Below, piece by piece: positions 423 to 12,720 of a stretch of 54,891 bases of DNA. The notes under the pieces are model-generated. The model saw only the letters and a list, made by a program, of their open reading frames with translations, was not told the origin of the DNA and made no database searches. Both the position numbers and the translations under genes were made by a program. Each line of letters begins with the position of its first letter. The first letter of the stretch is position 1. Source of the DNA: an uncultured bacterium. Its GTDB lineage: Bacteria; Caldisericota; JANLFM01. The stretch is from contig CAYXFH010000145.1 of the NCBI GenBank assembly GCA_964464245.1, forward strand, positions 1-54,891. Direction: 5' to 3'.

Positions 423-427
423 CCCTG

Positions 428-2731
428 CTACCTCTTCTCTGGGTGTAGAAAAAAGTATACTTCCTCGGCCTTGATTGGAAGCTTGTGTGGACGGAAACCA
501 ACTGCATCATAGATGGCATTGGCAATGGCCGCCGCCGTTGGGTTCAGCCCGATCTCGCCGACGCCCTTGGCGCCGTAGGGTCCCTCTGGATCAAGAGTCT
601 CGACCAGAAAAATATCTTCATCGGGGATATCCATTGCAGTAGGAAGCATCACTCGGTCCAAGCAATCAGTGACGACCTTGCCCGACATCGGATCAACTTT
701 CAGTTCCTCAGTCAGAGCATAGCCCATCCCTTGAGCCAAAGCTCCCTCGATTTGTCCTTCGACAGCAATCGGATTGAGGGCTTTACCCACATCTTGAGCT
801 ACAACCAAGCGCTTCACCCGGATCTCGCCGGTTTGCGTGTCCACGACAACCTCTGCTCCTTGGGCAGAGAAAGCATAGGCAGCAGAGACATTGGCATACC
901 CTTTGGGAGTCAGACGTACAGTTGGAGGGACATATTGGTACGCTGAAGTAAGAATGTGTCCAACAGTGCGAGGGGAATGGAAAACGGAATCTCCATAGGA
1001 AAGGGTCTTGCTTGGATCTTCGCGACAGAGAATCATGCCATCCTGCAGAAATAGAGTCTTCATGGGAACCTCTAATACGACTGCCGCCGATTCCAGCAGG
1101 AAAGTCTTCAATTGAGCGGCAGCCATTTTGGCGGCGTTCCCATCCTCGAAGGCGACGCGAGAGGCAAAGCTCCCAAGGGATTGTGGCGTCGTCTCAGTGT
1201 CCATGCTGATCAGGCGGATAGACTCCATGGGGAGCTGCAACTCCTCTGCAACAATCTGGGTGATGACCGTGTTGGCCCAAGTGCCGGTATCTCCGGACCC
1301 CTTGTACACAGAAACCCGGCCATCGATGAACATCTTCAGCTCGATCGCTGAAAACTCTCCGTCCGGGAAAACATTGCTGCCTGAGACGTGGATAGCTGTG
1401 GCCAAACCCTTTCCTTTCCTGTACCGGCCATCTTTCGGTTCTTTCCGGCGCTCCTTCCAGTTGATCGCCTGGCTCACCTTTTCCAGGCACTCCTCTAGTC
1501 CACAGGTAGTGATTGCCCAGCCGCAGGGCGTGAGATCCCCGGAACGGTTGGCATTCTTAATGCGCAGTTCCAGCGGGTCTATCCCCAAAGCCTCCGCAAT
1601 CTCGTCAAGTTGGGACTCGATAGCGAATATCACTTGAGGAGCTCCGAAACCCCGAAAAGGACCTCCAGCTTGCTTGTTGGTGTAGACGATATCGGCATTG
1701 AATCGGAAGTGAGGGATGCGGTAGCTGGAAGCCGCAGTTCCGGCGGCATAACCGGTAATAGCGGGACCGTAGTGGCAGTAAGCCCCCTTGTCAACAATTA
1801 CCTGCATCTCCCGCGCCATCAATGTCCCATCCAGCTTTACTCCGGTCTTGATGCGCATAAAGAAGGGATGGCGGATGCGGGTAGTGGTCATCTCCTCCTC
1901 GCGGGTGAAGGTAATGCGCACGGGGCGGCCGCAACGAATGGCCAGGAGAGCGGTGACACCTTCATCCTCACAGTACTTGGAACGGGAGCCGAAACCCCCG
2001 CCACAATGGACTTCCATCACTTGGACGGAAGAAATGGGCAAGTCACAAACATGCGCGACTTCCTTTCGCACGAAGTAAGGGCTCTGTGTGCCCGTCCATA
2101 TCTGGAGAACGCCGTCAGGATTCATCCAAGCTGCGCTAGATCGAGGCTCCATGTTGCAGTGGGACACAGCCTGAGTAGAGAACTGGTCCTCAAAAACTCG
2201 GTCAGATTGAGCGAATCCCTCATCCACGTTTCCGAAATCTCGCTTCATATTCAATACCAGGTTGTTGATCCGATCCTCGTGGATCAGGGGAGCTCCATCC
2301 AGCAATGCTTCGCAAGGATCGAAGACGGCAGGCAGAGGTTCATATTCAACTTCGATCAAGGCCAATGCTTCCTGCGCAATCTCCTCCGTCTCCGCCGCTA
2401 CAGCAACTACTGAGTCTCCTACGTAGCGAACCTTGTCGATTGCCAGGGGATACATGTCCGAGATCTGGGCAACGTATTTGATACCTGGTGTATCCGCTCC
2501 TGTCATAACAGTTACTACACCCGGCAATTCCAAAGCTCGAGAGGCATTGATGCTTCGAATACGCGCGTGAGCATGGGGGCTTCTTAGAATTTTCCCAAAG
2601 AGCATTCCGGGCAATCGCAAATCATCGGTGAAAGGAGCTTCTCCGGTGACTTTCGCCCACGCGTAGATCTCTGGAATTCGCTGCCCAACGTATTTCAGTG
2701 GTTCCATTCTAGCCTCCATCGAATTGATCAT
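428..2731 (-). CDS. Xanthine dehydrogenase/aldehyde oxidase family molybdopterin-binding large subunit (CoxL/XdhA-like)
   Basis: 767 aa. The N-terminus (YVGQRIPEIYAWAKVTGEAPFTDDLRLPGMLFGKILRSPHAHARIRSI) is typical of Mo-hydroxylase large subunits. The start overlaps the stop of the upstream gene (TAATG). Confidence 0.9.
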   Translation of the reverse strand: MINSMEARMEPLKYVGQRIPEIYAWAKVTGEAPFTDDLRLPGMLFGKILRSPHAHARIRSINASRALELPGVVTVMTGADTPGIKYVAQISDMYPLAIDKVRYVGDSVVAVAAETEEIAQEALALIEVEYEPLPAVFDPCEALLDGAPLIHEDRINNLVLNMKRDFGNVDEGFAQSDRVFEDQFSTQAVSHCNMEPRSSAAWMNPDGVLQIWTGTQSPYFVRKEVAHVCDLPISSVQVMEVHCGGGFGSRSKYCEDEGVTALLAIRCGRPVRITFTREEEMTTTRIRHPFFMRIKTGVKLDGTLMAREMQVIVDKGAYCHYGPAITGYAAGTAASSYRIPHFRFNADIVYTNKQAGGPFRGFGAPQVIFAIESQLDEIAEALGIDPLELRIKNANRSGDLTPCGWAITTCGLEECLEKVSQAINWKERRKEPKDGRYRKGKGLATAIHVSGSNVFPDGEFSAIELKMFIDGRVSVYKGSGDTGTWANTVITQIVAEELQLPMESIRLISMDTETTPQSLGSFASRVAFEDGNAAKMAAAQLKTFLLESAAVVLEVPMKTLFLQDGMILCREDPSKTLSYGDSVFHSPRTVGHILTSAYQYVPPTVRLTPKGYANVSAAYAFSAQGAEVVVDTQTGEIRVKRLVVAQDVGKALNPIAVEGQIEGALAQGMGYALTEELKVDPMSGKVVTDCLDRVMLPTAMDIPDEDIFLVETLDPEGPYGAKGVGEIGLNPTAAAIANAIYDAVGFRPHKLPIKAEEVYFFLHPEKR

Positions 2732-3444
2732 TATTCCATGCTGCCGCAGGCTGTTCTGTTAACTTGCTCGCCATAAGGGTCGCGGTGAGCTCGCTCGATC
2801 AGCTCATCGGAACGCATCCTGCTCGAATCGTAGCGTTCCTGGTGAGTGAACGAATCGGCCGGTCGGCGAGGCCTAGGCTCTCTGTCCTCATTGGGGTAAC
2901 CCAAGGGCAAGATGCAGACGATGCGTAGCGGATCCGGAATCTCCAGAAGAGATTTTACTTCCTCCGGGAAGAAGTTGGTGAAAACGGCAGTGCCCAGTCC
3001 CAGTGCAGTAACAGCCAGCAGCATATTCTGGATGGCCATGCTTACGCTGCCCCAGAAGGCAAATTGCTCAATGTTCTCCTCGACCTGGTGCATCATGCTG
3101 ACGTACCGGAAACGAGGATCCCCGATCACCACCAAGTGGACAGGGGCTTCCATCAAATATCCACCGGTAAACGTACGGAGGAAGGGGAAATCTCTTAGTT
3201 CCTTGATTCGCTTGATACAACGCTGCACACTTAATTGAATTTTTTCCTTGGTGTCCAGATCGCGCACCACCAGGAATTCCCAGGGTTGAGAATTGGCACT
3301 GGATGGCGCCCATCGACCAGCTTCGATGATCTTGGCGATACTCTCATCCGATACTGGGTCTGGCCTGAATGACCGGATTGAGCGCCGTTTCTGCATCAGC
3401 GTGAGTAAAGATTCGATTCCTATGCACGAATTTCCCTGGCTCAC
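2731..3444 (-). CDS. Nitroreductase family (FMN-dependent) protein
   Basis: 237 aa. It contains RRSIRSFRPDPVSDESIAKIIEAGRWAPSSANSQPWEFLVVRD, the classic nitroreductase N-terminal signature. The GTG start overlaps the aminotransferase stop (GTGA). Confidence 0.85.
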   Translation of the reverse strand: MSQGNSCIGIESLLTLMQKRRSIRSFRPDPVSDESIAKIIEAGRWAPSSANSQPWEFLVVRDLDTKEKIQLSVQRCIKRIKELRDFPFLRTFTGGYLMEAPVHLVVIGDPRFRYVSMMHQVEENIEQFAFWGSVSMAIQNMLLAVTALGLGTAVFTNFFPEEVKSLLEIPDPLRIVCILPLGYPNEDREPRPRRPADSFTHQERYDSSRMRSDELIERAHRDPYGEQVNRTACGSME

Positions 3445-4757
3445 GCGGCGCCTTCAGCTATCGCAAGAGCCTTTTCGAAGACTTCCAGCGTCCGCTCCGC
3501 TTCCTTTCGCGTAAAGCATAAGGGCGGCTGGAACCGGATGCGGTTGTAGTAGAGACCACCCCGGCCGATCAGCATCTTCTCTTTCAACGCTTCGTCGAGG
3601 ATTCGGGTCATAACCATATTGCTAGCAGGTGTCTTCTTTTCCTTGTCGGTGGTGATTTCAGCTCCAATGAAAAGACCTTTCCCTTCTACATCATCGAGGA
3701 AGGGATGATGTTTGCTCAACTCTACCAGACCAGCCTTGAGAAATTCTCCTACTTGTGCGGAGTTCTTCACCAGTCCTTCTTCTTCGGTGACCTCAATCGC
3801 TGCCAGAGCTGCCCGGCAACTGACCGGGTTCCCACCGAAAGTGGCGAAATCAGGCCCAGGGAAAGTATCGGCAATCTCGGTCTTGGCTACTACAGCGCCG
3901 ATTGGAAGTCCACCACCCAATCCTTTTGCTAACGTGACTACATCTGGCTCCACCCCATAATGCTCGATGCCGAACATCATTCCAGTGCGACCGAAACCAG
4001 TTTGCACTTCATCCACAATTAATAGGATCTGGTTCTCTTCGAGGATTGGCTTGAGCATCTTGAAATAGTCCGGCGGGGCTTCCACAATGCCACCGATGCC
4101 TTGGATAGGTTCCACAACAACAGCCGCCGTCCGGCTGCTGGTCTGAGTCTTCAAGGCGATTTTAAGATAGTTGGCACAGGCATAGCCGCACTCACTGTAA
4201 TGGTGATGACCCAAGGGACAACGGTAACAGTGGTACATTGGCAAATGCAGTGTTCCAGACATGAATGGCCCCAGGCCAGAGCGCCAAGCTCCCAGGCCGG
4301 TGATGCTCATGGTAAAGCCACCCCGCCCATAGAAGCCGTTTTGCAAGCCGAATATTTCAAACTTCTTGGTAGCGATACGGGCTAGGCTGATGGCATGTTC
4401 GTTCGCTTCGGTTCCCGAGTTGCAGAAGAAACTCTTCGCACGACCCTCGCCCATCGGGACGATCTCGGCCAGCTTCTTTGCCAGCAAGGGCATTGGAACA
4501 GTGCGATAAAGGGTAGAGAGATGGGTCAGTTGCCCTACTTGATCTTGTACTGCTGCCACCATTCTAGGATGCGCATGGCCGATGTTAATCACGGAAACCC
4601 CACTAAAGCAATCGAGGTATTCCTGCCCTTCGATATCCCAGAGCGTGGAACCCTTCCCCATCACGAATACTTTATCGTTCCAAGCCTCTACGCTCTTCAT
4701 CACATATTGATCCTGCATTTGGATGACTTCTGCTGCAGTCAGCCTTTCCTCAATCAT
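3441..4757 (-). CDS. Class-III (omega) aminotransferase, PLP-dependent
   Basis: The ORF track gives 3441..4865. I prefer ATG at 4757 (MIEERL...) because it is preceded by GGAGGAAGTG and avoids overlap with the upstream gene ending at 4795. Motifs seen are GHAHPRMVAAV, FFCNSGTEANE, LLIVDEVQTGFGRTG and the TLAKGLGGG lysine region. Confidence 0.88.
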   Translation of the reverse strand: MIEERLTAAEVIQMQDQYVMKSVEAWNDKVFVMGKGSTLWDIEGQEYLDCFSGVSVINIGHAHPRMVAAVQDQVGQLTHLSTLYRTVPMPLLAKKLAEIVPMGEGRAKSFFCNSGTEANEHAISLARIATKKFEIFGLQNGFYGRGGFTMSITGLGAWRSGLGPFMSGTLHLPMYHCYRCPLGHHHYSECGYACANYLKIALKTQTSSRTAAVVVEPIQGIGGIVEAPPDYFKMLKPILEENQILLIVDEVQTGFGRTGMMFGIEHYGVEPDVVTLAKGLGGGLPIGAVVAKTEIADTFPGPDFATFGGNPVSCRAALAAIEVTEEEGLVKNSAQVGEFLKAGLVELSKHHPFLDDVEGKGLFIGAEITTDKEKKTPASNMVMTRILDEALKEKMLIGRGGLYYNRIRFQPPLCFTRKEAERTLEVFEKALAIAEGAA

Positions 4758-4794
4758 CACTTCCTCCGTATTCTCTGCCTGAGTCACTGTTTTT

Positions 4795-6132
4795 TTACCT
4801 TGTCTTCCTGGCTTGAATGACCTTATGAGCAGCCCGTGTGGCTTCCTCAATGACCTGGTTTTCATCGACAGTCAGCAATTTCCGGCCTTCCATCAGGATC
4901 TTGCCATCTACGATCGTGGTATCCACGTTTTCACCGTGAGCCACATAGACTAGATGAGGAAGCACGTTTGAGTTGCTTCCATGGAAGACAGGCGTCAAAG
5001 CGGGGGTCCAGGTATCAACCAAGATCACGTCCGCTTTTTTTCCTACTTCCAGGGATCCAATTTGCTTATCGAGCCCCAGCGCCCGTGCGCCGTTGATCGT
5101 TGCCATTTCCAGGATTTGCCAAGAGGGGAGAAGGCTTGCATCGGTGTGAATGGCTTTCTGGAAAAGGGAGGCGTATTTCATGACTTCGAACATATCGTTG
5201 TTATTGTTGCAAGGAGCGTCGTCTGTGCCCAGGCCAACGTTGATACCGGCCTTCAAGAAGTCAATGGTCCGAGCAATCCCGTTCCCCAATTTGGCGTTGG
5301 AAACAGGGTTGTGGGAGATATGGGCGCCCGTCTTAGCTATCAGCTCTATTTCCGGATCGGATAGCCAAACACAATGGGCGGCCACCACATCCGGCCCAAG
5401 AAGACCTAAATCATATACGAACTCCACGGGAGGCTTTCCGTATTTCTCTTTACACAACTGTACCTCGCCCTTGGATTCGTTAAGGTGGACATGAACGCCG
5501 ACTCCATATTTGTCAGCCAGGGAACGGCACTTCTTGATATATTCCGCAGAACAAACAGGAATCCATTCAATGCCGAAAACAACCAGAATCCGTCCCCCAG
5601 CCGTGTTATTCCGTTCCAAGAAAGCCTTCTCGTTGTCTTCCAAGGTCTCTTGGCCCGGGATCAAATCGGCGCCTTCGCTGGAAAGCACGGCGCGGATACC
5701 GGTCTTCTCCGCCGCATCGGCCAAGGAAGGGAGCTTGATGTACATATCATTGACTGTTGTCGTTCCGCCCTTAATGACTTCTGAGTAGGCCAACATGGCG
5801 GTTTTGTAGGCATCATCAGGAGTCATCGCAGCCAGCATGGGGTAATAAATCGTATCGATCCATTCTTCCAAGCCCAGATGCTCGCCAACTCCACGTGAAA
5901 AATTATCCGCATGAAAGTGAAGATTGACGAGTCCCGGCATTATTATTTTATGAGTCGCATCGATTTCCTTCTTGCCGCTGTATTGGCTTCGAAGGACTTT
6001 CGAATCTCCCACGTCGGTGATTCTGCCTTGGTCAATCGCTACGGCTCCATCTTCAATAATGAGCCGTTCTGGATTCATCGTTACAACAATCCCGCTATGG
6101 ATCAAGAGCTCAATCGTTCTTGATTCCGGCAT
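4795..6132 (-). CDS. Metal-dependent amidohydrolase (cytosine/guanine deaminase, SsnA/TRZ-ATZ-like subgroup)
   Basis: It has an HxH metal motif (PGLVNLHFHADNF), later HVHLNES, and the C-terminal LGTDDAPCNNNNDMF and GSLEVGKKADVILVD typical of the family. I chose the start at 6132 (MPESR) because it is preceded by GGAGGG. Confidence 0.85.
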   Translation of the reverse strand: MPESRTIELLIHSGIVVTMNPERLIIEDGAVAIDQGRITDVGDSKVLRSQYSGKKEIDATHKIIMPGLVNLHFHADNFSRGVGEHLGLEEWIDTIYYPMLAAMTPDDAYKTAMLAYSEVIKGGTTTVNDMYIKLPSLADAAEKTGIRAVLSSEGADLIPGQETLEDNEKAFLERNNTAGGRILVVFGIEWIPVCSAEYIKKCRSLADKYGVGVHVHLNESKGEVQLCKEKYGKPPVEFVYDLGLLGPDVVAAHCVWLSDPEIELIAKTGAHISHNPVSNAKLGNGIARTIDFLKAGINVGLGTDDAPCNNNNDMFEVMKYASLFQKAIHTDASLLPSWQILEMATINGARALGLDKQIGSLEVGKKADVILVDTWTPALTPVFHGSNSNVLPHLVYVAHGENVDTTIVDGKILMEGRKLLTVDENQVIEEATRAAHKVIQARKTR

Positions 6133-6211
6133 TGCTACCCTCCTGTTCTGCCACATAAAGTATTACCAGTTCTTAGCGCCAAACTCTATGCAAGCTAACA
6201 TGCTGGTACCG

Positions 6212-6709
6212 TTACTGATCTTTGAGCTCTCTATCGTTGGATTGGTTGGAAGATCGCTCGCTTGCAGAAACGACTGCTTCCTCGATTTTTCGATAGCCGG
6301 TACAACGACAAATGTTTCCAGATAACCCTCTACGAATCTCATCCCGATTGGGTTTGGGGTTTTTGTCCAACAACGCCTTGGCTGATAGGATCATCCCGGG
6401 CGTACAGAACCCACATTGAAAGGCGCCCTTTTCGATAAAAGCTTCTTGCAGTGGATGAGGGTTGTCTTTGGTTCCCAACCCCTTTGCCGTGATGATCTTG
6501 GCGCCTTCTGCCTGCAACGCCAGGGTGAGACAGGAATCAATGGATATGCCGTTCATGATGACGGTACAGGCGCCACAGTCTCCTTTGCCGCACCCTTTCT
6601 TCACTTCCGTGCAGTTCAGTTCTTCGCGCAGGAAATCTAGAAGCGTTTGTCCCGGATTTGCCCATCCTGTCCGCCACGCTCCGTTGATCTGAAGGCGGAT
6701 ATGTTTCAC
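6212..6709 (-). CDS. (2Fe-2S)-binding small subunit of the molybdenum hydroxylase (CoxS/XdhC-type)
   Basis: 165 aa. Cys clusters are CGKGDCGACTV and CGFCTPG...CRCTGY. There is an ATGA overlap with the FAD subunit gene. Confidence 0.92.
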   Translation of the reverse strand: MKHIRLQINGAWRTGWANPGQTLLDFLREELNCTEVKKGCGKGDCGACTVIMNGISIDSCLTLALQAEGAKIITAKGLGTKDNPHPLQEAFIEKGAFQCGFCTPGMILSAKALLDKNPKPNRDEIRRGLSGNICRCTGYRKIEEAVVSASERSSNQSNDRELKDQ

Positions 6710-7584
6710 GCCAGGCTCCCTTCCAAGCGACTGATCGCTAGCTTTATAGTCTCTCTTGCAAGCGCTTCTGCCATTTCCTTGCGGTAAAGTCCGGATCCAC
6801 GCAACACTGAATCTCTTGGCTGAACTTCCTTCTGAACGACCGCTGCGCAGGTAGATATCGTTTCGTCATTCAGTAGTTTTCCGATTAAATAAGTTTCCGC
6901 CTGACGCGCTCGAAATGGCATCGTCGCAACGGGACCAACAGCGATTCGAGCATCAGCGCAATACCCTGCGGATGAAGCAATCCACACTGCGCAATTCAGT
7001 TGGGGGAGCGCTAACGCTTTCCGTATCGCCATTCTGCGAAATGCCGATGCCTCCCCCTGGTGTTGTGCCTCGAACTCGATGCACGTGATCATTTCACGGG
7101 ATGCGTCTATTGCCGATCTTCCGACACCGACATACGAATTACTCAGCATAAGGTCACGCTCCCCCTGGAAGCCAAGGATCTTAAGTCTGGCATCCAGTGC
7201 AACCAAAGCGATTGCTCCGTCCGCTGCCGGCTGGGCTGAGACGATATTGCCTGCCAACGTAGCGCGGTTTCGAATCTGAGGCCCGCCAACCCAGGAACAG
7301 GCTTCCCATAGAGCTGTTGCATGATGCTTTAACAATCGCGATTCCTCGACCTGAGTCATCGTTACCAGCGGACCCAACTGAATGCGTTCTCCATCTGAAT
7401 GAATCCGATCCAATCCCGGAATTCGACTTACATCAACCAGCGCCTCAAAACTGTTGGCATGATCACGAATCTCCAAGATTAAATCGGTTCCGCCTGCAAT
7501 CAGACGAGCCTTTCCATCTTCGATCAGAAGCATATCGATAGCCTCTGATGAGCTGGTTGGAAAGAGATGATCTCGAATTCTCAC
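6706..7584 (-). CDS. FAD-binding medium subunit of the molybdenum hydroxylase (CoxM-like)
   Basis: 292 aa with a GTG start. It shows ARLIAGGTDLILEIRD and NRATLAGNI motifs of the FAD_binding_5 / CO dehydrogenase flavoprotein family. Confidence 0.88.
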   Translation of the reverse strand: MRIRDHLFPTSSSEAIDMLLIEDGKARLIAGGTDLILEIRDHANSFEALVDVSRIPGLDRIHSDGERIQLGPLVTMTQVEESRLLKHHATALWEACSWVGGPQIRNRATLAGNIVSAQPAADGAIALVALDARLKILGFQGERDLMLSNSYVGVGRSAIDASREMITCIEFEAQHQGEASAFRRMAIRKALALPQLNCAVWIASSAGYCADARIAVGPVATMPFRARQAETYLIGKLLNDETISTCAAVVQKEVQPRDSVLRGSGLYRKEMAEALARETIKLAISRLEGSLA

Positions 7585-7590
7585 GGCGTG

Positions 7591-8361
7591 TTATTCCTCG
7601 AGAAAGGCAACCGCTCGCACAAAGCCAGCGCTCCCATGGTAAAACTTGATAGGAAATCCGTAAAACTTAAAACCAAATGGTGGCAATTGGTCTAAGTTAG
7701 CGAGTTTCTCGTAGTGAGCATATTCCTTACGAGTTCCTACCAAATGGCATGGCCAAAGATATTTCGGATCGCGACCATGGTCTTTATATTGCTTGGACCA
7801 GTGGTTGTATCCTATGTCAAAGCTCCACGAATCAGTTCCTACCGTCTTGATTCCTTGGTCAAGAACCCACTCCAAGGCTTCTGCGGAAAGATGGCCGCCA
7901 TGATCGGCGTAATGTGGTTGGCCCCAAAGCTTATCGTTGCCGGTCATGGCGAGGAAGATATCCAGCGGCTTCAGCGTGTAGCCGATCTTGCTCAAACGAT
8001 CCTTCAGCTCACCTGCAGAGAGCTGGCAACCATCCGCTACATCCCGAATATCGACCACTACGCCATCCCCAAAGCACCATTCCAACGGCCACTCTTCGAT
8101 GGTCTTCGGTTTCATCCCAGCGCAGAGAGGACCCATGTGCCAAGGAGAATCGAGATGTGTTCCCGCATGGGTTGTCATCTCAAGGAAATCATCCGCCCAT
8201 GCCTTGCCGGGGAACGGCCAATCTTGAGGATCGATGCCGTAGTATTTTTGGTCTTCTTTAGCGCCATTCTCATGCGGCAGATTGGTGATTTTTACATTCA
8301 TCAAGGGGCTGGGGTCGGTAGATGTTACCATCGAGAGATCGATTATTCTCGTCAAAATCAT
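7591..8361 (-). CDS. Putative cyclase family protein (kynurenine formamidase/isatin hydrolase-like)
   Basis: 256 aa with HAGTHLDSPWH (the HxGTHxDxPxH metal motif of the cyclase family). The exact start is uncertain. The SD GGAG sits only 1 nt from the ATG, and a TTG two codons downstream has better spacing. Confidence 0.8.
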   Translation of the reverse strand: MILTRIIDLSMVTSTDPSPLMNVKITNLPHENGAKEDQKYYGIDPQDWPFPGKAWADDFLEMTTHAGTHLDSPWHMGPLCAGMKPKTIEEWPLEWCFGDGVVVDIRDVADGCQLSAGELKDRLSKIGYTLKPLDIFLAMTGNDKLWGQPHYADHGGHLSAEALEWVLDQGIKTVGTDSWSFDIGYNHWSKQYKDHGRDPKYLWPCHLVGTRKEYAHYEKLANLDQLPPFGFKFYGFPIKFYHGSAGFVRAVAFLEE

Positions 8362-8378
8362 GCTCCTTTCAAAATAAG

Positions 8379-9629
8379 TTACTGATTAGTTAAAACAGTG
8401 TACGCATTCGTGAAGCAATCTAAGGGAGGTCGAAAAAGTCCAGCCCCGATTTGCCCAATTCCTGGAAGGCGATGTGCGATCCCCGTGTTGATCACTGGGG
8501 TAATTTGGAGTTCGACGACTTTACGCACATCGATTCCCAATGGAGTGCCACGGTAGTCCAAGAAAGGGATTCTAAAACGAGGGTGTTCGGCAGCAGTGAT
8601 CCTGTACATCTCTTCTGTTGCAGTGAGAGCATCTTGAACTGTTCCTCCAACGAAACTGGTAATCGCTGGAGCAGCAGCCATAGCGACCCCCCCTAGCCCA
8701 GTTGCTTCCGATAGATACGAGTCTCCCATTACCGGATTGGCATCCTGCTCTCCATAACCTTGGAAATATCTCCCTTCGGCCAGCGGAGCTGGTGTCGTGA
8801 ACCAGTGAGAACCCAATCCGGCAACCTGGATTGCGAATTGAAAGCCATTCGCCGCCATACATGAAACAATTGTACTTCCCCGAATGTCTCTCACGTTGTC
8901 CATCGTCGCCTTGCTTGCGGCCATCGAGAGATTTAGGAAAAATTGGTCGTTACGATCAATAAAAAAAAGAGCCTCGGCGATCTCTTCTTTGGAGAAAGAT
9001 GATCTCACTAACCAAGGCGCAATCCGGCGAAACAGCAATGAAGTCGCTGATTTATTGCGATTGTGGCACTCATCTCCTCGTTGCAGCGCTCTTTCAATAA
9101 TAGCGGAGATATCTACCTCTCCTCCTAACGCAATTGCTTCTTCCAGCAAAGGGGCAAAATAGCGTTCAATCCAACGCAGTCTCTCGATAACATGGCTTCC
9201 ATTGGCGCCAAAACGCAAGGTTTGTCCAAGGCCTTCATTGATGGTAATAAAAACTCTATTAGAAAAAGGCCTGTTCTCGACAATGAAAACGGGCATGGCG
9301 GGACTTACGATACCAGCCATCGGACCCAACATGCCGTATGCATGTGCCGACGCGAACTCCACTTCCCCTCTTTCTGCCATCGCCTGGGCTTCCTCCAGAG
9401 TCTCTGCCCATCGCTGATAGACAATGGCGCCGATTGCGGCATTGCGCATTGCTCCGCACATTTCGTTCCAAGGCAGAGGAGAACCTGCATGAAGCAAACG
9501 CCGCCCCTCGCGTAGCCAATGAACTTCTCGACCAGCCGTACTCATTCCGACCCAGAATACATGGGCAGAGCCAATCCGCCGCAATACCTCCTCATTCGCT
9601 TTTTCGAAAGGGGAAGAGTGCGCTGTCAT
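8379..9629 (-). CDS. DUF1116 family protein (YlbE/AllG-like)
   Basis: 416 aa. LLHAGSPLPWNEMCGAMRNAAIGAIVY, GPMAGIVSPAMPVFIVEN, NEGLGQTLRFGANGSHVIERLRWI and GDECHNRN match my recollection of E. coli YlbE-type DUF1116 proteins. Confidence 0.65.
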   Translation of the reverse strand: MTAHSSPFEKANEEVLRRIGSAHVFWVGMSTAGREVHWLREGRRLLHAGSPLPWNEMCGAMRNAAIGAIVYQRWAETLEEAQAMAERGEVEFASAHAYGMLGPMAGIVSPAMPVFIVENRPFSNRVFITINEGLGQTLRFGANGSHVIERLRWIERYFAPLLEEAIALGGEVDISAIIERALQRGDECHNRNKSATSLLFRRIAPWLVRSSFSKEEIAEALFFIDRNDQFFLNLSMAASKATMDNVRDIRGSTIVSCMAANGFQFAIQVAGLGSHWFTTPAPLAEGRYFQGYGEQDANPVMGDSYLSEATGLGGVAMAAAPAITSFVGGTVQDALTATEEMYRITAAEHPRFRIPFLDYRGTPLGIDVRKVVELQITPVINTGIAHRLPGIGQIGAGLFRPPLDCFTNAYTVLTNQ

Positions 9630-9631
9630 AC

Positions 9632-10024
9632 CTACCCTAGCGCTGCGATCCCACTAATTTCGATCATCAATTCCTCCATCACCAAGTGACTAATCTCGAC
9701 AAGCGTGCTGGCAGGAGGATTGTCTCGAAAATACGGATCACGGACCTTTGCAAAAATCGCGCGGTTTCTAATATCGGTAAGAAAAACATTGATGCTGATC
9801 AAGTCTTCAGGACTCCCACCTACAGATTTCAACATGGCCATCAAATTATCCAATGCTTGCTTTGCCTGAGCTTCAAAATCTCCCTTCCCCACTACCTTGC
9901 CGTCGCTATCCAAAGAGATTTGTCCAGAGATGCAAACTATCCCCCCACGGCGCACACATTGAGACCATGTCCCATCGCTTGCAGCCACTTCATTCGTTCC
10001 CAGGACTCTAGTTGCTTTTTCCAT
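9632..10024 (-). CDS. RidA/YjgF family reactive-intermediate (enamine/imine) deaminase
   Basis: ISGQISLDSDGKVVGKGDFEAQAKQALDNLMAMLKSVGGSPEDLISINVFLTD is typical RidA. The ORF track starts at 10060. I use the in-frame ATG at 10024 (MEKATRV), but the start is uncertain. Confidence 0.82.
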   Translation of the reverse strand: MEKATRVLGTNEVAASDGTWSQCVRRGGIVCISGQISLDSDGKVVGKGDFEAQAKQALDNLMAMLKSVGGSPEDLISINVFLTDIRNRAIFAKVRDPYFRDNPPASTLVEISHLVMEELMIEISGIAALG

Positions 10025-10700
10025 CCGCGATCGCATCCTTTCCATTGGCCATTCGCACAAAATCCTTAATAACGCTCTCCAGATGATCTTGTGCCGCTTT
10101 TTCTGATCGCACTGGATCGTGGCTCTTGAAGCTATCGATAATTGCTTGGTGCTCCTTAACCGAGTGAGAATAGCGATCAGGCGCCCTTATCGTATAAAAT
10201 CGGCACAAATATACTAATGATAATTGCTTTTCCAAGATATTGATCAATGTTGGGGAACCAGAACAGCGAACTAACATCGCATGTATCTTTCGGTCGTAAT
10301 CGAAAAATTCCTCTTGGCCTACTGGTTGTTGGCGTAAACTCATCTCTTGCTGAAGCGATTCCAATTCACCGATCTCCTCAGGGGTAATCCTTCTTGCCGC
10401 CTCGCCGGCCGCTAAACCCTCCATGGCAGCTTCTACACGGAGTAAATCCACAATCTCTTCACGGCGAAACGAAATAACAAACATGCCAACATGAGGTTGA
10501 TTGTCGATCAATCCTTCCTGCTCGAGGACTAATAAGGCCTCCCGAATCGGAGTTCTGCTTACTCCATATTTGGCGCTGATCTCTTCTTCGATAAGTTTCT
10601 GACCAGGTAAGTATTCCCGATTGAGTATAGCTTCACGTATGACTTGAACCAATTCCGTCCTCATCGTTCTTCTGAGATCATTAACCGTTGGAATCTGCAT
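10008..10700 (-). CDS. GntR family transcriptional regulator (FadR/FCD-type C-terminal domain)
   Basis: 230 aa. It has an N-terminal winged HTH (LPGQKLIEEEISAKYGVSRTPIREALLVLEQEGLI) and a helical C-terminal effector domain. Confidence 0.9.
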   Translation of the reverse strand: MQIPTVNDLRRTMRTELVQVIREAILNREYLPGQKLIEEEISAKYGVSRTPIREALLVLEQEGLIDNQPHVGMFVISFRREEIVDLLRVEAAMEGLAAGEAARRITPEEIGELESLQQEMSLRQQPVGQEEFFDYDRKIHAMLVRCSGSPTLINILEKQLSLVYLCRFYTIRAPDRYSHSVKEHQAIIDSFKSHDPVRSEKAAQDHLESVIKDFVRMANGKDAIADGKSN

Positions 10701-10722
10701 CTGGACCCTTTTTCATCTCCAA

Positions 10723-10762
10723 AGCATCTGGAGGTCGAGATCTCTCGGCCTCCAGATGCTTA
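10723..10762 (-). terminator. 13-bp stem hairpin between the thiaminase-like gene and the GntR gene (attenuator or partial terminator)
   Basis: AAGCATCTGGAGG (10723..10735) pairs perfectly with CCTCCAGATGCTT (10750..10762). No strong U-tract follows, so it may only attenuate read-through. Confidence 0.45.
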
Positions 10763-10771
10763 TTGAAATCA

Positions 10772-12271
10772 TTAGTTCGTCGGCAAGAGCTCGTCCAACT
10801 TCGCTCTCAATCCTGGCGCCCAATCCCAGTCGGCCGGAGGCGGGTAGTAGCGGCCAAGCTGCATCACGGGAAGCATTTGTATATAGAGCGGAGAAGTTTT
10901 CAGTAAATTCGCGTCTTGATAGACTGACATTCGAGCAGGGGAAAGGTAACGAACTGGGCTGGTCGGTGGGGCTACCTGGCGGACGTTCTCGCTCGTGCTG
11001 GTGACAAACTGGATAAAGGTCAGCGCATCAGCCCTCTTCTGGCCGGTCAATGATTTATCGAGACAGAAGCTATCCGTGTAACCAGTTGAAGCGGACTTGC
11101 CGGTATCGGATTGAATGAACGGCATGATGGCGATGTCATCCAAGCTGATGGTCGTGTCCCACAAACCTTGAGCTTGCTCGATGATGTTCGCCATGTAACC
11201 CAAGGCCTCAGAGTAATAAACATAAGCTCGGCCGTTGCCATAGACGAACTTCCGCATCAGATCGTCAGTGATCTTATCGTTAATCGGGTTAGCTCCGTTG
11301 CCTGGATCCATCATGGCGATGATGCGCTTCTCAATGTCGATGGCCTGCTGATTGATGTTGTCTTTGTTTACGTAACTGTAGAATTTCACGGGGTCGTTTG
11401 GAAAGAGATCCATCAATGTGTCTTTATACATTTCCTCAGTTCGGTAGCTCCCCAGCATATCGCACAGCAAGCCCTGTCCAAGGGGGTGGTTCTTCCCGCC
11501 GATCACCTTCTCAAGCTCGGAGAACGTCTTTGTATTGGCAAGTTCCGTATCGTTTTTATTGTAGAAAAGGAAATTCGTACAAGTCCAATGAGGGATTCCC
11601 CACCACTTGCCATCAATGACAGCCACATCTTTGACGATTTGCAAGAAGTCATCCGGATTCGGAACTTCGCTATCGAGCAAGGGCTGCAACTTGTCTTTAG
11701 CGATAAACTCACGCAAATAACCCTCGTCCAATTCCCACACGTCTGCCTTTGCTGTAAAAAGGCCGGATGGGTCGCTGTAGTAATCAGGTAAGTTGATAAT
11801 TTCAAGGTCGATTTCGGGGTAGGCTTTCTCGAAATCCCTCTCCATTGTCGTCATGTATTCCTCTAGGTTGGGAATCCAGTTGTAGATGACTGCAGAGAGG
11901 GGTCTCCTGGCTGCGGTCCCGGTTGGCGTCGCAGGAATATCAGCCCCAGGCGCATAGAAATAGACGGCATCGGTGCTCCCGTCCTCCTTGTTAGACCATG
12001 TCGCGGATCCGCCGAATAACTCCACCGCCCAGCGGAATGGCACATAGGTTAACCCATCAATGAGCTTGGCGCCTTCTGTCTGTACAGGGCCTTTATCGGT
12101 TTCCCATTGAGTGGAGCCGATCCCATTGTCGAAGGGAATCTGCACCCATGAAGCGTCGCGAATCGGGGAAACATACTCTATTGGATGCATAGTTGATCCG
12201 AGAGCCAAACTACTGCCGGCAAGGAGCAGGACGAGAAGACAAACTACTCCATTGACCCAGAACCTCTTCAT
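10772..12271 (-). CDS. Secreted thiaminase-I-like (thiamine pyridinylase family, periplasmic-binding-protein fold) protein with an N-terminal copper-amine-oxidase-N-like stalk domain
   Basis: 499 aa with a signal peptide (MKRFWVNGVVCLLVLLLAGSSLALG). A stalk-type segment follows (LIDGLTYVPFRWAVELFGGSATW). The remainder has AVIYNWIPN...YPEIDLEI...YYSDP, GIPHWTCTNFLFYNKND, GRAYVYYSEALGYM and RYLSPARMSVYQ. These parallel my recollection of Paenibacillus thiaminolyticus thiaminase I (AIYPYVPD, LCTNLLFYRKGD with the nucleophilic Cys, GRAFIGYSESMM, YLLPARHQVYE). A plain solute-binding protein is the fallback call. Confidence 0.6.
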   Translation of the reverse strand: MKRFWVNGVVCLLVLLLAGSSLALGSTMHPIEYVSPIRDASWVQIPFDNGIGSTQWETDKGPVQTEGAKLIDGLTYVPFRWAVELFGGSATWSNKEDGSTDAVYFYAPGADIPATPTGTAARRPLSAVIYNWIPNLEEYMTTMERDFEKAYPEIDLEIINLPDYYSDPSGLFTAKADVWELDEGYLREFIAKDKLQPLLDSEVPNPDDFLQIVKDVAVIDGKWWGIPHWTCTNFLFYNKNDTELANTKTFSELEKVIGGKNHPLGQGLLCDMLGSYRTEEMYKDTLMDLFPNDPVKFYSYVNKDNINQQAIDIEKRIIAMMDPGNGANPINDKITDDLMRKFVYGNGRAYVYYSEALGYMANIIEQAQGLWDTTISLDDIAIMPFIQSDTGKSASTGYTDSFCLDKSLTGQKRADALTFIQFVTSTSENVRQVAPPTSPVRYLSPARMSVYQDANLLKTSPLYIQMLPVMQLGRYYPPPADWDWAPGLRAKLDELLPTN

Positions 12272-12292
12272 TTCTTTTCCTCCTTAAGCGGG

Positions 12293-12308: not shown

Positions 12309-12720
12309 ACAGTATAACTTGAAAGTCAATACGCATAGACGAAGAGAAAAGAAGTGTGAGGCAAGGGTGTTCTGGAGTTGAAAACTGCACTGCCGGTCCT
12401 CGGATCGGGTTCTTGTTCTTCACCGCTCGTTTCTGCCGCACTGGGGTGCGGCGTTCCCAGAGATTCCACCACCAGCCGGACTTCCTGGTCCATCACGCTC
12501 AAGGTGCGCTACCGACTGCCCAGATAAGTCGTGGACCGATATAATCCACCTTCATGCCAAAGCCCGATGATAAGACCGCGGAACGCCAAGGCATGCTCCT
12601 GTGATGCATCGACCATTTTGAAGCGCCATCCTTGGAAGAAGCCTTACTTGTGTCCGAAGCCGTGGCACATTTATGGGCGCCGGATAGAGTACAGACGCGT
12701 GAGGAAATCTCTATTCATTG

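What the first reader, a model, noticed from the sequence alone, without database searches (positions are those of the whole stretch)
10772..12271. Thiaminase-I-like protein with conserved CTN nucleophile motif, fused to a cell-wall stalk-type domain
After a signal peptide and a segment resembling the copper-amine-oxidase N-terminal (stalk) domain, the protein shows a string of blocks: AVIYNWIPN, YYSDP, GIPHWTCTNFLFYNKND, GRAYVYYSEALGYM and YLSPARMSVYQ. These parallel, in the same order, what I recall of Paenibacillus thiaminolyticus thiaminase I, including the Cys of the LCTNLLFY block that is its catalytic nucleophile.

The physiological role of thiaminase I is still debated. A copy that leads a regulated catabolic operon would be informative. 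If the Cys is catalytic, this is an enzyme and not the solute-binding protein that automated annotation would probably call.
Basis: partly seen in the sequence, partly recalled or inferred. Interest (0 to 1): 0.62.

Follow-up and report, generated by a model that had tools for sequence, protein, structure and literature searches.

The report
Surface-tethered thiaminase I leading catabolic operon
This gene encodes an exported, cell-surface-tethered relative of the vitamin-B1-splitting enzyme thiaminase I with its catalytic residues intact. It is wired to the same ring-degrading genes in two distant bacterial lineages, in a host that cannot rebuild vitamin B1 from the pieces, which points to breakdown rather than the recycling role now favoured.

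Summary
ORF 10772..12271 (-) encodes a 499-aa protein with a signal peptide, a roughly 85-aa Cu-amine-oxidase-N1-type stalk module, a linker and a thiaminase-I core.

- **Best matches:** the best sequence and fold matches in the PDB are the two bacterial thiaminase I structures (4KYS, 2THI/3THI).
- **Catalytic residues:** Cys231 aligns with the nucleophile C113 and Glu355 with the base E241. Five more active-site positions are also conserved.
- **Clade:** the protein belongs to a long-stemmed clade of 23 sequences. This clade lies outside the BcmE "equivalog" group (137 bits against a cut-off of 175).
- **Gene neighbourhood:** in 7 of 7 stalk-bearing loci, and in the lipoprotein-type loci of a Spirochaetes-labelled lineage, the gene sits beside the same cluster. 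That cluster encodes a GntR/FCD regulator, RidA, an AllG-like protein, a cyclase, a Mo-hydroxylase, an aminohydrolase, an ω-aminotransferase and a nitroreductase, and in a congener also a BMP-type ABC importer.
- **Host thiamine genes:** no ThiC, ThiD, ThiE, ThiN (all four MAGs of the genus) or TenA (own MAG) was found. The host's only TPP riboswitch precedes ThiT and TPK.

Salvage is therefore implausible here. My best reading is an extracellular front-end enzyme that feeds an aminopyrimidine catabolic pathway. Enzyme activity, substrate and pathway are all inferred, not shown.

The parts
10772..12271 (-). Whole ORF, 499 aa (P0001): exported thiaminase-I-family protein
   Evidence: Pfam PF22141 47.8 bits against gathering score 27; TIGR04541 137.3 bits against cut-off 175; PDB 4kys E=4.6e-25, 2thi E=2.1e-19
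12191..12271 (-). Sec-type signal peptide (about aa 1-27: MKR, hydrophobic run, ALG/S); no lipobox Cys
   Evidence: Read directly from the sequence. The short-form homologues instead have lipoboxes such as LAGC, LAAC and FSGC
11942..12190 (-). N-terminal beta-rich module of Cu_amine_oxidN1 ('stalk') type, about aa 28-110
   Evidence: Direct Pfam hit is below cut-off (15.8-18.3 bits). The same module heads P0051, P0092, P0114 and P0170 (phmmer E 9e-37 to 9e-14). P0027, P0092 and P0170 pass the Pfam gathering score. AF2 confidence here is low, pLDDT 39-68
11906..11941 (-). Pro/Thr-rich linker (ADIPATPTGTAARR)
   Evidence: pLDDT below 50 for residues 111-118; variable in alignment A1
10775..11905 (-). 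Thiaminase-I catalytic core (aa 123-499), group-II periplasmic-binding-protein fold
   Evidence: pLDDT mostly 86-97; Foldseek top hits 4kys and 3thi with TM 0.78 normalised to the target
11579..11581 (-). Cys231 codon (TGT) in PHWTCTN: predicted catalytic nucleophile, aligned with C113 of 2THI
   Evidence: invariant in 25 of 25 rows of A1; Cys in 130 of 134 family members
11207..11209 (-). Glu355 codon (GAG) in VYYSEA: predicted general base, aligned with E241 of 2THI
   Evidence: Glu in 132 of 134 family members
12279..12285 (-). Shine-Dalgarno AAGGAGG, 7 nt before the ATG
   Evidence: the AGGAGG core is kept in L006, L007, L008 and L011
12293..12308 (-). Perfect 16-bp palindrome GTAATGTATACATTAC: candidate operator of the GntR/FCD regulator
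   Evidence: Identical in L008 and L011; TAATGTATACATTA in L007; ATTGTATACAAT in L006. A/T-rich TATAC-type dyads lie in the divergent intergenic region of L001 and L013. Binding not tested
12324..12329 (-). TTGACT, a -35-like hexamer conserved in relatives; no convincing -10 found
   Evidence: the consensus scan found no promoter here
10724..10759 (-). Strong hairpin between the thiaminase stop codon and the gntR start, with no U-tract
   Evidence: -33.5 kcal/mol for the intergenic stretch. A hairpin of -30 to -38 kcal/mol sits at the same place in L006, L007, L008, L011 and L012, with a different sequence. Not called a terminator by the scan
10008..10700 (-). GntR/FCD-family transcription regulator
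   Evidence: PF00392 and PF07729; adjacent to the thiaminase gene in every cluster-bearing locus
428..10060 (-). Tight run of nine catabolic genes: RidA, AllG-like (DUF1116), cyclase-family hydrolase, Mo-hydroxylase FAD and 2Fe-2S subunits, TRZ/ATZ-type aminohydrolase, class-III aminotransferase, nitroreductase-family flavoprotein, Mo-hydroxylase large subunit
   Evidence: Pfam; NCBIfam, none at equivalog level; synteny
3..422 (-). Start of an ABC ATPase gene, cut off by the contig end. In a congener it continues into two BPD_transp_2 permeases, a Bmp-family binding protein and a Zn alcohol dehydrogenase

Best explanation
The gene encodes a catalytically competent enzyme of the thiaminase I family (EC 2.5.1.2 type chemistry). 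It is exported by a Sec signal peptide and held at the cell surface by an N-terminal Cu-amine-oxidase-N1-type module. Its shorter relatives use a lipid anchor instead.

By analogy with the solved enzymes, Glu355 would activate Cys231, which attacks C6 of a 4-aminopyrimidine ring. The group attached to the 5-methylene (the thiazole, in thiamine) is expelled, and a second nucleophile then takes its place.

I infer that the enzyme works outside the cell on thiamine or a close thiamine-like compound. The pyrimidine product would then be imported, by the BMP-type ABC system encoded at the end of the island in congeners. The co-regulated cytoplasmic enzymes would degrade it: an aminohydrolase of the guanine-deaminase/TRZ-ATZ group, an ω-aminotransferase, a Mo-hydroxylase, a nitroreductase-like flavoprotein, a cyclase-family hydrolase, an AllG-like protein and RidA. 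The GntR/FCD repressor would control this through the palindrome in front of the thiaminase gene.

On this reading the role is catabolic (nutritional or detoxifying). It is not salvage.

Shown here: family, fold, catalytic residues, clade, conserved linkage, and no thiamine assembly gene found in the host genus. Inferred: activity, substrate, co-transcription, and every step of the pathway.
For: **Family and fold**
- PF22141 scores above its gathering score.
- phmmer against the PDB puts 4KYS and 2THI/3THI/4THI on top, at 4.6e-25 to 3e-19.
- The AF2 core is confident. Foldseek puts thiaminase I five orders of magnitude ahead of any binding protein.

**Catalytic apparatus**
- C231/C113, E355/E241, Y130/Y16, Y165/Y50, D182/D64, Y353/Y239 and D400/D272 are all conserved.
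- Cys and Glu are near-universal across 134 family members.
- dN/dS against a congener is 0.16.

**Precedent**
- Myxobacterial CcThi1 is only 18-19% identical to 2THI and 4KYS and was annotated as a solute-binding protein. It is an active thiaminase I, and C148A/E269A kills it. It is also a lipoprotein (PMC10499793).

**Linkage to the cluster**
- The full cluster lies co-directionally beside the gene in 7 of 7 stalk-bearing loci: the window, L006/9, L007, L008, L011, L012 and L022.
- It lies divergently beside the lipoprotein form in L001/2 and L013. L003 and L023 end just after the divergent GntR gene.
- Within the phylum, the cluster's AllG-like orthologue occurs in exactly the 6 genomes that carry PF22141, and in none of the other 87.

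**Transporter logic**
- The island carries its own Bmp-family binding protein with BPD_transp_2 permeases. The thiaminase-like protein is therefore not the binding protein of that system.

**Host thiamine metabolism**
- No TPP riboswitch is in the window.
- The genome's single TPP riboswitch precedes ThiT and thiamin pyrophosphokinase.
- TenA was not found in the window's own MAG.
- ThiE, ThiC, ThiD and ThiN were not found in any of the four genomes of the genus.

**Downstream enzymes**
- The aminohydrolase belongs to the group that deaminates amino-N-heterocycles. That fits a 4-aminopyrimidine.
Against: - No activity, substrate or product has been measured.
- The protein scores below the BcmE equivalog cut-off (137 against 175 bits). 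Its whole half of the family scores 110-138 bits.
- The clade has its own substitutions beside the catalytic Glu. Y352 stands where 101 of the 111 family members outside the clade have Gly, and E183 and C403 are also clade-specific. The substrate or co-substrate may therefore differ from thiamine.
- Secreting a thiamine-destroying enzyme is paradoxical for an organism that needs intact thiamine.
- Environmental thiamine is scarce (my own knowledge), which makes an 11-gene pathway for it look costly.
- A strong hairpin separates the gene from gntR, and no RNA data could be consulted.
- Three clade members are not next to the cluster (L004/5/10, L014, L016). One of them sits beside TenA, which fits salvage in that organism.
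- The host genomes are MAGs of 74-89% completeness.
- None of the downstream enzymes reaches an equivalog assignment, so the pathway chemistry is conjecture.
Confidence: 0.6

Rival explanations
1. Same fold and chemistry, different natural substrate. The clade cleaves or base-exchanges some other heteroaryl-methyl onium or leaving-group compound. Candidates are a thiamine antivitamin such as methoxythiamine or pyrithiamine, a thiaminase adduct, or an unrelated natural product. The cluster then degrades or detoxifies that heterocycle.
For: - The clade is separate, with a long stem, and scores below the equivalog cut-off.
- It has clade-specific residues next to the catalytic Glu and Cys.
- The host depends on importing intact thiamine. 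Destroying thiamine looks self-harming, while removing antivitamins taken up by the same route would help.
- Freshwater antivitamins are documented (PMC12345177 and PMC12637900, titles and abstracts only).
Against: - All residues that I recall as contacting thiamine's pyrimidine in the solved enzymes are conserved.
- One clade member lies beside TenA, a thiamine-pyrimidine enzyme.
- C. botulinum thiaminase I is reported not to degrade methoxythiamin pyrophosphate (PMC5627462).
Confidence: 0.2
2. A competition weapon. The surface enzyme depletes thiamine around the cell to starve competitors, as shown for myxobacterial CcThi1. The neighbouring cluster would be functionally unrelated.
For: - There is precedent for tethered thiaminase I used in antagonism (PMC10499793).
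- A hairpin separates the gene from the cluster.
Against: - The producer itself appears to need exogenous intact thiamine.
- The linkage to the cluster is conserved in two orientations and in two distant lineages, with strict co-occurrence in the phylum.
Confidence: 0.1
3. A salvage enzyme. It frees the pyrimidine and thiazole from damaged or analogue thiamine so that the cell can rebuild thiamine. This is the role currently favoured for Paenibacillus and Burkholderia.
For: - It is the prevailing view in the literature (PMC5627462, PMC10147936).
- In Peptococcaceae UBA5757 the clade member lies near TenA and a permease.
Against: - TenA was not found in the window's own MAG, and ThiD, ThiE, ThiN and ThiC were not found in any of the four genomes of the genus.
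- No TPP riboswitch precedes the gene. The Paenibacillus operons do have one (PMC5627462).
- The neighbours are catabolic genes, not biosynthetic ones.
Confidence: 0.05
4. A non-catalytic family-1 solute-binding protein for an ABC transporter, which is the default automated call.
For: SBP_bac_8 scores 32.3 bits, above its gathering score of 27. The fold is shared with MalE-type proteins.
Against: - Thiaminase I matches are far stronger.
- The catalytic Cys and Glu are invariant in the clade.
- No BPD_transp_1 permeases are nearby. The island's transporter is of the Bmp/BPD_transp_2 type and has its own binding protein.
Confidence: 0.03

Closest known systems
Thiaminase I of Paenibacillus thiaminolyticus (PDB 2THI, 3THI, 4THI) and C. 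botulinum BcmE (PDB 4KYS); EC 2.5.1.2, TIGR04541
   Same: - Same fold. The catalytic Cys sits in a P-x-x-x-C-T-N motif and the Glu base in a Y-S-E motif.
- The Tyr and Asp cleft residues Y16, Y50, D64, Y239 and D272 are also conserved.
- Both are exported proteins.
   Different: - Only 22-24% identity in the structural alignment.
- A different major branch of the family.
- 137 bits on TIGR04541, against 308-529 bits for the BcmE-type branch.
- An extra N-terminal stalk module.
- A GntR-regulated catabolic neighbourhood, instead of a TPP-riboswitch operon of thiamine salvage and bacimethrin genes (PMC5627462).
- Gly replaced by Tyr352 next to the catalytic Glu.
CcThi1 and MxThi1, the lipoprotein thiaminase I of myxobacteria (PMC10499793)
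   Same: - A divergent thiaminase I that automated annotation calls a binding protein.
- Retained at the cell envelope (by a lipid anchor, like the short-form relatives of this gene).
- The Cys/Glu pair has been shown to be essential.
   Different: - CcThi1 acts as an antagonistic thiamine-scavenging weapon delivered on outer-membrane vesicles.
- No link to a catabolic cluster is reported.
TbpA/ThiB, the periplasmic thiamine-binding protein
   Same: Same group-II binding-protein fold. It has been proposed to share an ancestor with thiaminase I (Soriano et al. 2008, cited from the reference list; not read).
   Different: TbpA has no catalytic Cys and works with a thiamine ABC importer. It did not appear among the PDB sequence hits at E up to 10.
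TenA (thiaminase II)
   Same: It acts on the same pyrimidine moiety through a Cys nucleophile, and it neighbours one clade member.
   Different: An unrelated all-helical fold. It is cytoplasmic and uses water as the nucleophile. It was not found in this genome.

Membership tests
Thiaminase I (thiamine pyridinylase, EC 2.5.1.2; Pfam PF22141) | Pfam Thiaminase-1_dom match above the gathering score | tested here: met
   47.8 bits against 27, residues 232-364
Thiaminase I (thiamine pyridinylase, EC 2.5.1.2; Pfam PF22141) | Catalytic Cys nucleophile at the position of C113 (2THI) / C143 (4KYS) | tested here: met
   Cys231 aligns in both HMMER and MAFFT alignments; invariant in the clade
Thiaminase I (thiamine pyridinylase, EC 2.5.1.2; Pfam PF22141) | Glu general base at the position of E241 / E271 | tested here: met
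   Glu355; the role of the Cys/Glu pair is cited from PMC10499793
Thiaminase I (thiamine pyridinylase, EC 2.5.1.2; Pfam PF22141) | Cleft residues Y16, Y50, D64, Y239, D272 (2THI numbering; their roles are recalled from Campobasso 1998 and Sikowitz 2013, which are not held in the library) | tested here: met
   Y130, Y165, D182, Y353 and D400. Y18 becomes W132. Y222 is not conserved (D336), and that column varies across the family
Thiaminase I (thiamine pyridinylase, EC 2.5.1.2; Pfam PF22141) | Group-II periplasmic-binding-protein fold closest to solved thiaminase I | tested here: met
   Foldseek: 4kys 3.9e-22, 3thi 1.4e-21, TM 0.78 normalised to the target; best binding protein 6e-17
Thiaminase I (thiamine pyridinylase, EC 2.5.1.2; Pfam PF22141) | Cys and Glu side chains juxtaposed in the cleft in 3D | not testable with these tools
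   Model coordinates are not exposed to the Python box, and Foldseek returns no residue-level superposition
Thiaminase I (thiamine pyridinylase, EC 2.5.1.2; Pfam PF22141) | Nucleophile-dependent cleavage of thiamine | not testable with these tools
   Needs an enzyme assay
BcmE-type thiaminase I equivalog (NCBIfam TIGR04541) | Whole-protein score at or above the curated cut-off of 175 bits | tested here: not met
   137.3 bits. The branch with 2THI and 4KYS scores 308-529 bits. The other branch, including this clade, scores 110-138 bits
ABC-transporter family-1 solute-binding protein (SBP_bac_8) | Pfam match above the gathering score | tested here: met
   32.3 bits against 27. This reflects the shared fold and is weaker than the thiaminase match
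ABC-transporter family-1 solute-binding protein (SBP_bac_8) | Encoded with cognate BPD_transp_1 permeases and an ATPase | tested here: not met
   None adjacent. The island's transporter is Bmp plus BPD_transp_2, with its own binding protein
Cu_amine_oxidN1 ('stalk') domain, PF07833 | Pfam match above the gathering score of 24.2 bits | tested here: inconclusive
   15.8 bits for the full protein and 18.3 bits for the isolated domain. Homologous modules in P0027 (24.8), P0092 (28.8) and P0170 (30.8) pass and match the query at E 1e-13 to 1e-36

The most novel reading that the evidence does not exclude
The island headed by this gene would be the first genetically defined route for complete bacterial catabolism of the pyrimidine half of vitamin B1 or of its antivitamin analogues. 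A surface thiaminase I would serve as the extracellular front end. The product would be imported by a BMP-type ABC system and then dismantled by an aminohydrolase, an ω-aminotransferase, a Mo-hydroxylase, a flavoprotein and hydrolases. This would give thiaminase I a third physiological role, catabolic, beside salvage and competition. It would also assign functions to an orphan AllG-like (DUF1116) protein and a cyclase-family hydrolase.
Probability: 0.35. Interest if true: 0.8.

Novelty: new variant of a known kind. Interest (0 to 1): 0.62.

Why it matters
The physiological purpose of thiaminase I has been argued over for decades. Current papers favour either salvage of thiamine precursors or starvation of competitors (PMC5627462, PMC10147936, PMC10499793).

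This case gives a clean natural experiment.
- The catalytic site is intact.
- No gene for reassembling thiamine from its halves was found in the host genus; the genome's one TPP riboswitch controls an importer and a kinase for the intact vitamin.
- The gene is regulated by a GntR protein rather than a TPP riboswitch.
- It travels as a unit with a set of amino-N-heterocycle-degrading genes in two distant lineages.

Together these make a catabolic or detoxifying role directly testable with recombinant proteins. They also supply candidate genes for the old, gene-less biochemistry of bacterial thiamine degradation. On the practical side, about two thirds of the thiaminase-I family (the branch below the TIGR04541 cut-off) is likely to be mis-annotated or under-annotated.

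Tried and rejected
- **TPP riboswitch in front of the gene:** none in the whole window at Rfam gathering thresholds.
- **Sigma-70 promoter and intrinsic terminator scans:** nothing convincing at the gene's ends. TTGACT has no properly spaced -10. The intergenic hairpin lacks a U-tract.
- **Primary structure papers:** PMC3883099, PMC3890816 and PMC6040661 are not held. The roles of Y16, Y50, D64 and D272 therefore rest on my memory. The numbering was checked against the 2THI sequence.
- **A 156-aa ORF next to short-form genes as a possible conserved partner:** the L001 and L016 ORFs are unrelated.
- **The stalk as a general leader in this genome:** only one further weak match turned up in the 81%-complete MAG.
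- **Metagenome scan for more contexts:** only 8 loci, 2 of them in the clade.
- **Literature search for a described thiamine catabolic gene cluster:** none found.
- **Faster protein evolution as the reason for the gene's low identity to congeners:** rejected. dN/dS is ordinary (0.16), and it is dS that is high.
Full report
**What is in the sequence**

The minus strand between 10772 and 12271 carries a 499-codon ORF. Its ATG lies 7 nt after AAGGAGG.

The protein has four parts.
- A Sec-type signal peptide of about 27 residues, with no lipobox.
- A beta-rich module of about 85 residues.
- A Pro/Thr-rich linker.
- A core of about 375 residues.

**Family assignment**

- Pfam gives Thiaminase-1_dom at 47.8 bits (gathering score 27). 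SBP_bac_8 is weaker at 32.3 bits.
- NCBIfam gives only the BcmE thiaminase equivalog. The score is 137.3 bits, below its cut-off of 175.
- Against all PDB sequences, the top hits are C. botulinum thiaminase I (4KYS, E = 4.6e-25) and P. thiaminolyticus thiaminase I (2THI, 3THI, 4THI; about 2e-19). The first binding protein reaches 6e-09 over a partial stretch.
- An AlphaFold2 model built on 25 homologues has a confident core, pLDDT mostly 86-97.
- Foldseek ranks 4KYS and 3THI first, at 3.9e-22 and 1.4e-21 with TM 0.78 normalised to the target. The best sugar-binding protein is at 6e-17.

**Catalytic residues**

I rebuilt the 2THI chain from the HMMER output and checked its numbering. Positions 113, 241, 16, 50, 64, 239 and 272 are C, E, Y, Y, D, Y and D, as I recall from the structural papers. 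In a 134-sequence family alignment the query carries the following residues at those columns.

| 2THI residue | Query residue |
|---|---|
| C113 | C231 |
| E241 | E355 |
| Y16 | Y130 |
| Y50 | Y165 |
| D64 | D182 |
| Y239 | Y353 |
| D272 | D400 |

Across the family the Cys column is Cys in 130 of 134 sequences, and the Glu column is Glu in 132 of 134. In the query's own clade both are invariant, apart from one frameshifted entry.

The Cys/Glu pair is required for activity. This was shown by mutagenesis in the myxobacterial enzyme CcThi1. CcThi1 is only 18-19% identical to 2THI and 4KYS, was annotated as a solute-binding protein, and is a lipoprotein (PMC10499793). The query is 22-24% identical to 4KYS and 3THI in the structural alignment, so it is no further from the solved enzymes than a proven thiaminase is.

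I could not measure the Cys-Glu geometry, because model coordinates are not exposed.

**Position in the family**

The family is small. It has 402 representatives at E ≤ 1e-3 among 1.84 billion cluster representatives. A maximum-likelihood tree of 134 full-length members splits it in two.
- One branch has 38 rows and holds both solved bacterial enzymes.
- The other has 96 rows. Within it the query's 23-row clade hangs on a long stem (0.9 changes per column, support 100).

The split matches the NCBIfam scores. Five members of the first branch score 308-529 bits on TIGR04541. Five members of the second, including two from the query clade, score 110-138 bits. The query is therefore a member of the Pfam-level family but not of the curated BcmE equivalog.

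The clade also has residues of its own near the active site. Tyr352 stands where 101 of the 111 family members outside the clade have Gly. Glu183, Gly358 and Cys403 are also clade-specific. This leaves room for a different substrate or co-substrate preference.

**The N-terminal module**

The direct Pfam hit to Cu_amine_oxidN1 is below threshold, at 15.8 bits for the whole protein and 18.3 bits for the isolated domain. However, the same signal peptide plus module heads other secreted proteins that carry DUF922, CAP or MG2 domains. Identity there is 45-65% over the shared N-terminal stretch, with phmmer E from 9e-37 to 9e-14. In three of those proteins the Pfam model passes its cut-off. So it is a lineage-typical envelope module of the stalk type.

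The 15 shorter clade members (about 390-415 aa) lack the module. Most of them instead show a lipobox-like Cys (LAGC, LAAC, FSGC and similar). Both designs keep the enzyme at the cell, which fits an enzyme whose product the producer wants to capture. That last point is an inference.

**Neighbourhood**

Downstream on the same strand, mostly touching or overlapping, come the following genes.
- A GntR/FCD regulator
- RidA
- An AllG-like (DUF1116) protein
- A cyclase-family hydrolase
- Mo-hydroxylase FAD and 2Fe-2S subunits
- An aminohydrolase
- A class-III aminotransferase
- A nitroreductase-family protein
- The Mo-hydroxylase large subunit
- The start of an ABC ATPase, cut off by the contig end

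None of these reaches an NCBIfam equivalog cut-off. The aminohydrolase belongs to the TRZ/ATZ, guanine-deaminase and deoxyadenosine-deaminase group, which removes amino groups from N-heterocycles.

In a congeneric genome the island continues with the ABC ATPase, two BPD_transp_2 permeases, a 687-aa Bmp-family binding protein and a Zn alcohol dehydrogenase. The island thus has its own binding protein of another family. That removes the main reason to read the thiaminase-like protein as a transporter component.

**Regulatory features**

- A perfect 16-bp palindrome, GTAATGTATACATTAC, lies 7 nt upstream of the ribosome-binding site. It is conserved, with small changes, in the relatives.
- A hairpin of -30 to -38 kcal/mol without a U-tract always lies between the thiaminase stop codon and the gntR start. 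Its sequence differs between the window and the relatives.
- Whether this hairpin terminates, attenuates or stabilises the transcript is unknown.

**Is the linkage conserved?**

I used tblastn with the window's proteins against fetched loci.

| Arrangement | Loci |
|---|---|
| Full cluster co-directional with the thiaminase gene, all 7 distinct stalk-bearing loci | window, L006/9, L007, L008, L011, L012, L022 |
| Cluster divergent from the lipoprotein-type gene, in a Spirochaetes-labelled MAG and a lake metagenome contig; here an aldehyde:ferredoxin oxidoreductase is added | L001/2, L013 |
| Short contigs that end just after the divergent GntR gene | L003, L023 |
| Clade members not adjacent to the cluster | L014, L016, and Peptococcaceae UBA5757 (L004/5/10) |
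| More distant family members (≤ 36% identity), no cluster | L015, L024-L029 |

In Peptococcaceae UBA5757 the gene sits 1.2 kb from TenA and an amino-acid permease. A reduced module (aminohydrolase, RidA, AllG-like, cyclase, ABC ATPase) lies on another contig.

The stalk-bearing loci belong to two genera of one GTDB family, although NCBI labels them Coprothermobacterota, Thermodesulfobiota or just 'bacterium'. The cross-lineage evidence is therefore that family against the Spirochaetes-labelled lineage.

Within the window's phylum (93 genomes, 24 genera), PF22141 occurs in 6 genomes of those 2 genera. Orthologues of the cluster's AllG-like gene (≥ 65% identity) occur in exactly the same 6. The other genomes have only a paralogue at 43-52% identity, or none. 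The thiaminase gene and the cluster are thus gained or lost together.

**The host's thiamine economy**

- There is no TPP riboswitch in the window.
- The genome, an 81%-complete MAG of 1.68 Mb, has one TPP riboswitch. It sits in front of a ThiT (YuaJ) thiamine transporter gene and a thiamin pyrophosphokinase gene.
- TenA was not found in the window's own MAG.
- ThiE, ThiC, ThiD and ThiN were not found in any of the four genomes of the genus (74-89% complete), while the control genomes responded.

If the gaps in the four MAGs are independent, the chance that all four miss a given gene is of the order of 1e-3. The genus therefore looks like an auxotroph that imports intact thiamine and cannot join a pyrimidine to a thiazole. 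This removes the salvage explanation that fits the Paenibacillus operons (PMC5627462) and that recent work favours in general (PMC10147936). It also makes a pure 'starve the neighbours' role awkward.

**Interpretation**

I commit to the following. This is a functional thiaminase-I-type enzyme, tethered at the cell surface. It releases or transfers the aminopyrimidine moiety of thiamine or a thiamine-like compound outside the cell. The product is taken up and degraded by the co-inherited, GntR-controlled cluster.

A chemically reasonable but unproven scheme runs as follows.
1. The aminotransferase acts on a 5-aminomethyl group, or the alcohol dehydrogenase acts on the 5-hydroxymethyl group. Either gives an aldehyde.
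2. The Mo-enzyme, or the AFOR in the Spirochaetes-type cluster, oxidises the aldehyde or hydroxylates the ring.
3. The aminohydrolase removes the 4-amino group.
4. The flavoprotein, the cyclase-family hydrolase, the AllG-like protein and RidA finish ring reduction, ring opening and imine disposal.

From my own memory, 1960s work on soil bacteria reported 4-amino-2-methylpyrimidine-5-carboxylate as a thiamine breakdown product. No genes were ever attached to it. My literature searches found no described gene cluster for thiamine catabolism.

My confidence, claim by claim:

| Claim | Confidence |
|---|---|
| It is a thiaminase-I-fold enzyme with an intact catalytic pair | about 0.9 |
| The natural substrate is thiamine or a close analogue | about 0.65 |
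| It functionally feeds the cluster | about 0.55 |

**Rivals**

- Same chemistry on a different substrate, with antivitamin detoxification an attractive version for an importer-dependent auxotroph.
- A competition weapon with an unrelated neighbour cluster.
- Salvage.
- A plain binding protein.

These are weighed in the dedicated sections of this report.

**Verdict**

The gene itself is a new variant of a known enzyme family: a new clade, a new tethering module and a new regulatory and genomic context. Its value lies in that context, which makes the disputed physiological role of thiaminase I experimentally approachable.

Noticed in passing
window 10724-10759 (-); same position in L006, L007, L008, L011, L012: A very stable hairpin (-30 to -38 kcal/mol) without a U-tract always lies between the thiaminase stop codon and the gntR start. 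The window's stem sequence differs from the one shared by the relatives. It may be a transcript-end stabiliser or an attenuator that sets the ratio of the exported enzyme to the cytoplasmic enzymes.
   Followed up: partly
window 10775-12271 against L011 7284-8780: The thiaminase gene is much more diverged from the congener than its neighbours are: 76% amino-acid identity and dS 1.06, against 89-98% and dS 0.06-0.75. Its dN/dS is ordinary (0.16). This looks like an older allele or a recombinational replacement of the catalytic part, not relaxed selection. The N-terminal 123 aa are 87% identical and the core 72%.
   Followed up: partly
own genome G000:C175:5007-5110 (+) = L018 1501-1604, and ORFs L018 1649-2263 and 2224-2901: The only TPP riboswitch found in the MAG precedes a ThiT (YuaJ) transporter gene and a thiamin pyrophosphokinase gene. 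ThiC, ThiD, ThiE and ThiN were not found in any of the four genomes of the genus, and TenA was not found in the window's own MAG. The genus looks like an auxotroph for intact thiamine.
   Followed up: yes
window 11942-12271 (-); proteins P0027, P0028, P0051, P0092, P0114, P0170: The same signal peptide plus stalk module (45-65% identity over the shared N-terminal stretch) heads unrelated secreted proteins with DUF922, CAP or MG2 domains. This suggests a lineage-specific envelope-tethering cassette that is shuffled between exoproteins. Only one weak second copy was found in the incomplete MAG of the window.
   Followed up: partly
L001 3453-5270 (-), L013 3443-5260 (-): The Spirochaetes-type version of the cluster carries an extra tungsten-type aldehyde:ferredoxin oxidoreductase (AFOR_N/AFOR_C) between the 2Fe-2S subunit gene and the aminohydrolase gene. 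This hints at an aldehyde intermediate in the pathway.
   Followed up: no
L020 1116-8094 (congener G089:C259), continuing from window 3-422: Beyond the window's contig end, the island continues with a double ABC ATPase, two BPD_transp_2 permeases, a 687-aa Bmp-family binding protein (about twice the usual length) and a Zn alcohol dehydrogenase.
   Followed up: partly
L004/L005 12474-14849; L021 1981-9378 (Peptococcaceae UBA5757): In this Firmicute MAG the clade's thiaminase gene lies beside TenA and an amino-acid permease. A reduced module (aminohydrolase, RidA, AllG-like, cyclase, ABC ATPase) sits on another contig. RidA, AllG-like and cyclase may be the conserved core of the pathway.
   Followed up: partly
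window 8379-9629 (-) and G000:C17:4079-5287: The genome has two AllG-like (DUF1116) genes. The cluster copy is restricted to thiaminase-bearing genomes. A paralogue at about 49% identity is widespread in the phylum. Neither was seen with the AllF/AllH partners known from E. coli oxamate carbamoyltransferase (PMC11326118, title and abstract only).
   Followed up: partly
window 1-12000 against the rest: G+C is 0.49-0.53 across the island and 0.54-0.59 in the rest of the window. Together with its patchy distribution in the phylum, this is consistent with horizontal acquisition of the island.
   Followed up: no
protein positions 352, 183, 358, 403 (window codons within 10775-11905): Clade-specific residues lie next to the catalytic Glu and in the cleft strands. 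Tyr352 replaces a near-universal Gly. Glu183, Gly358 and an invariant Cys403 are also clade-specific. These are possible determinants of a distinct substrate or co-substrate preference.
   Followed up: no
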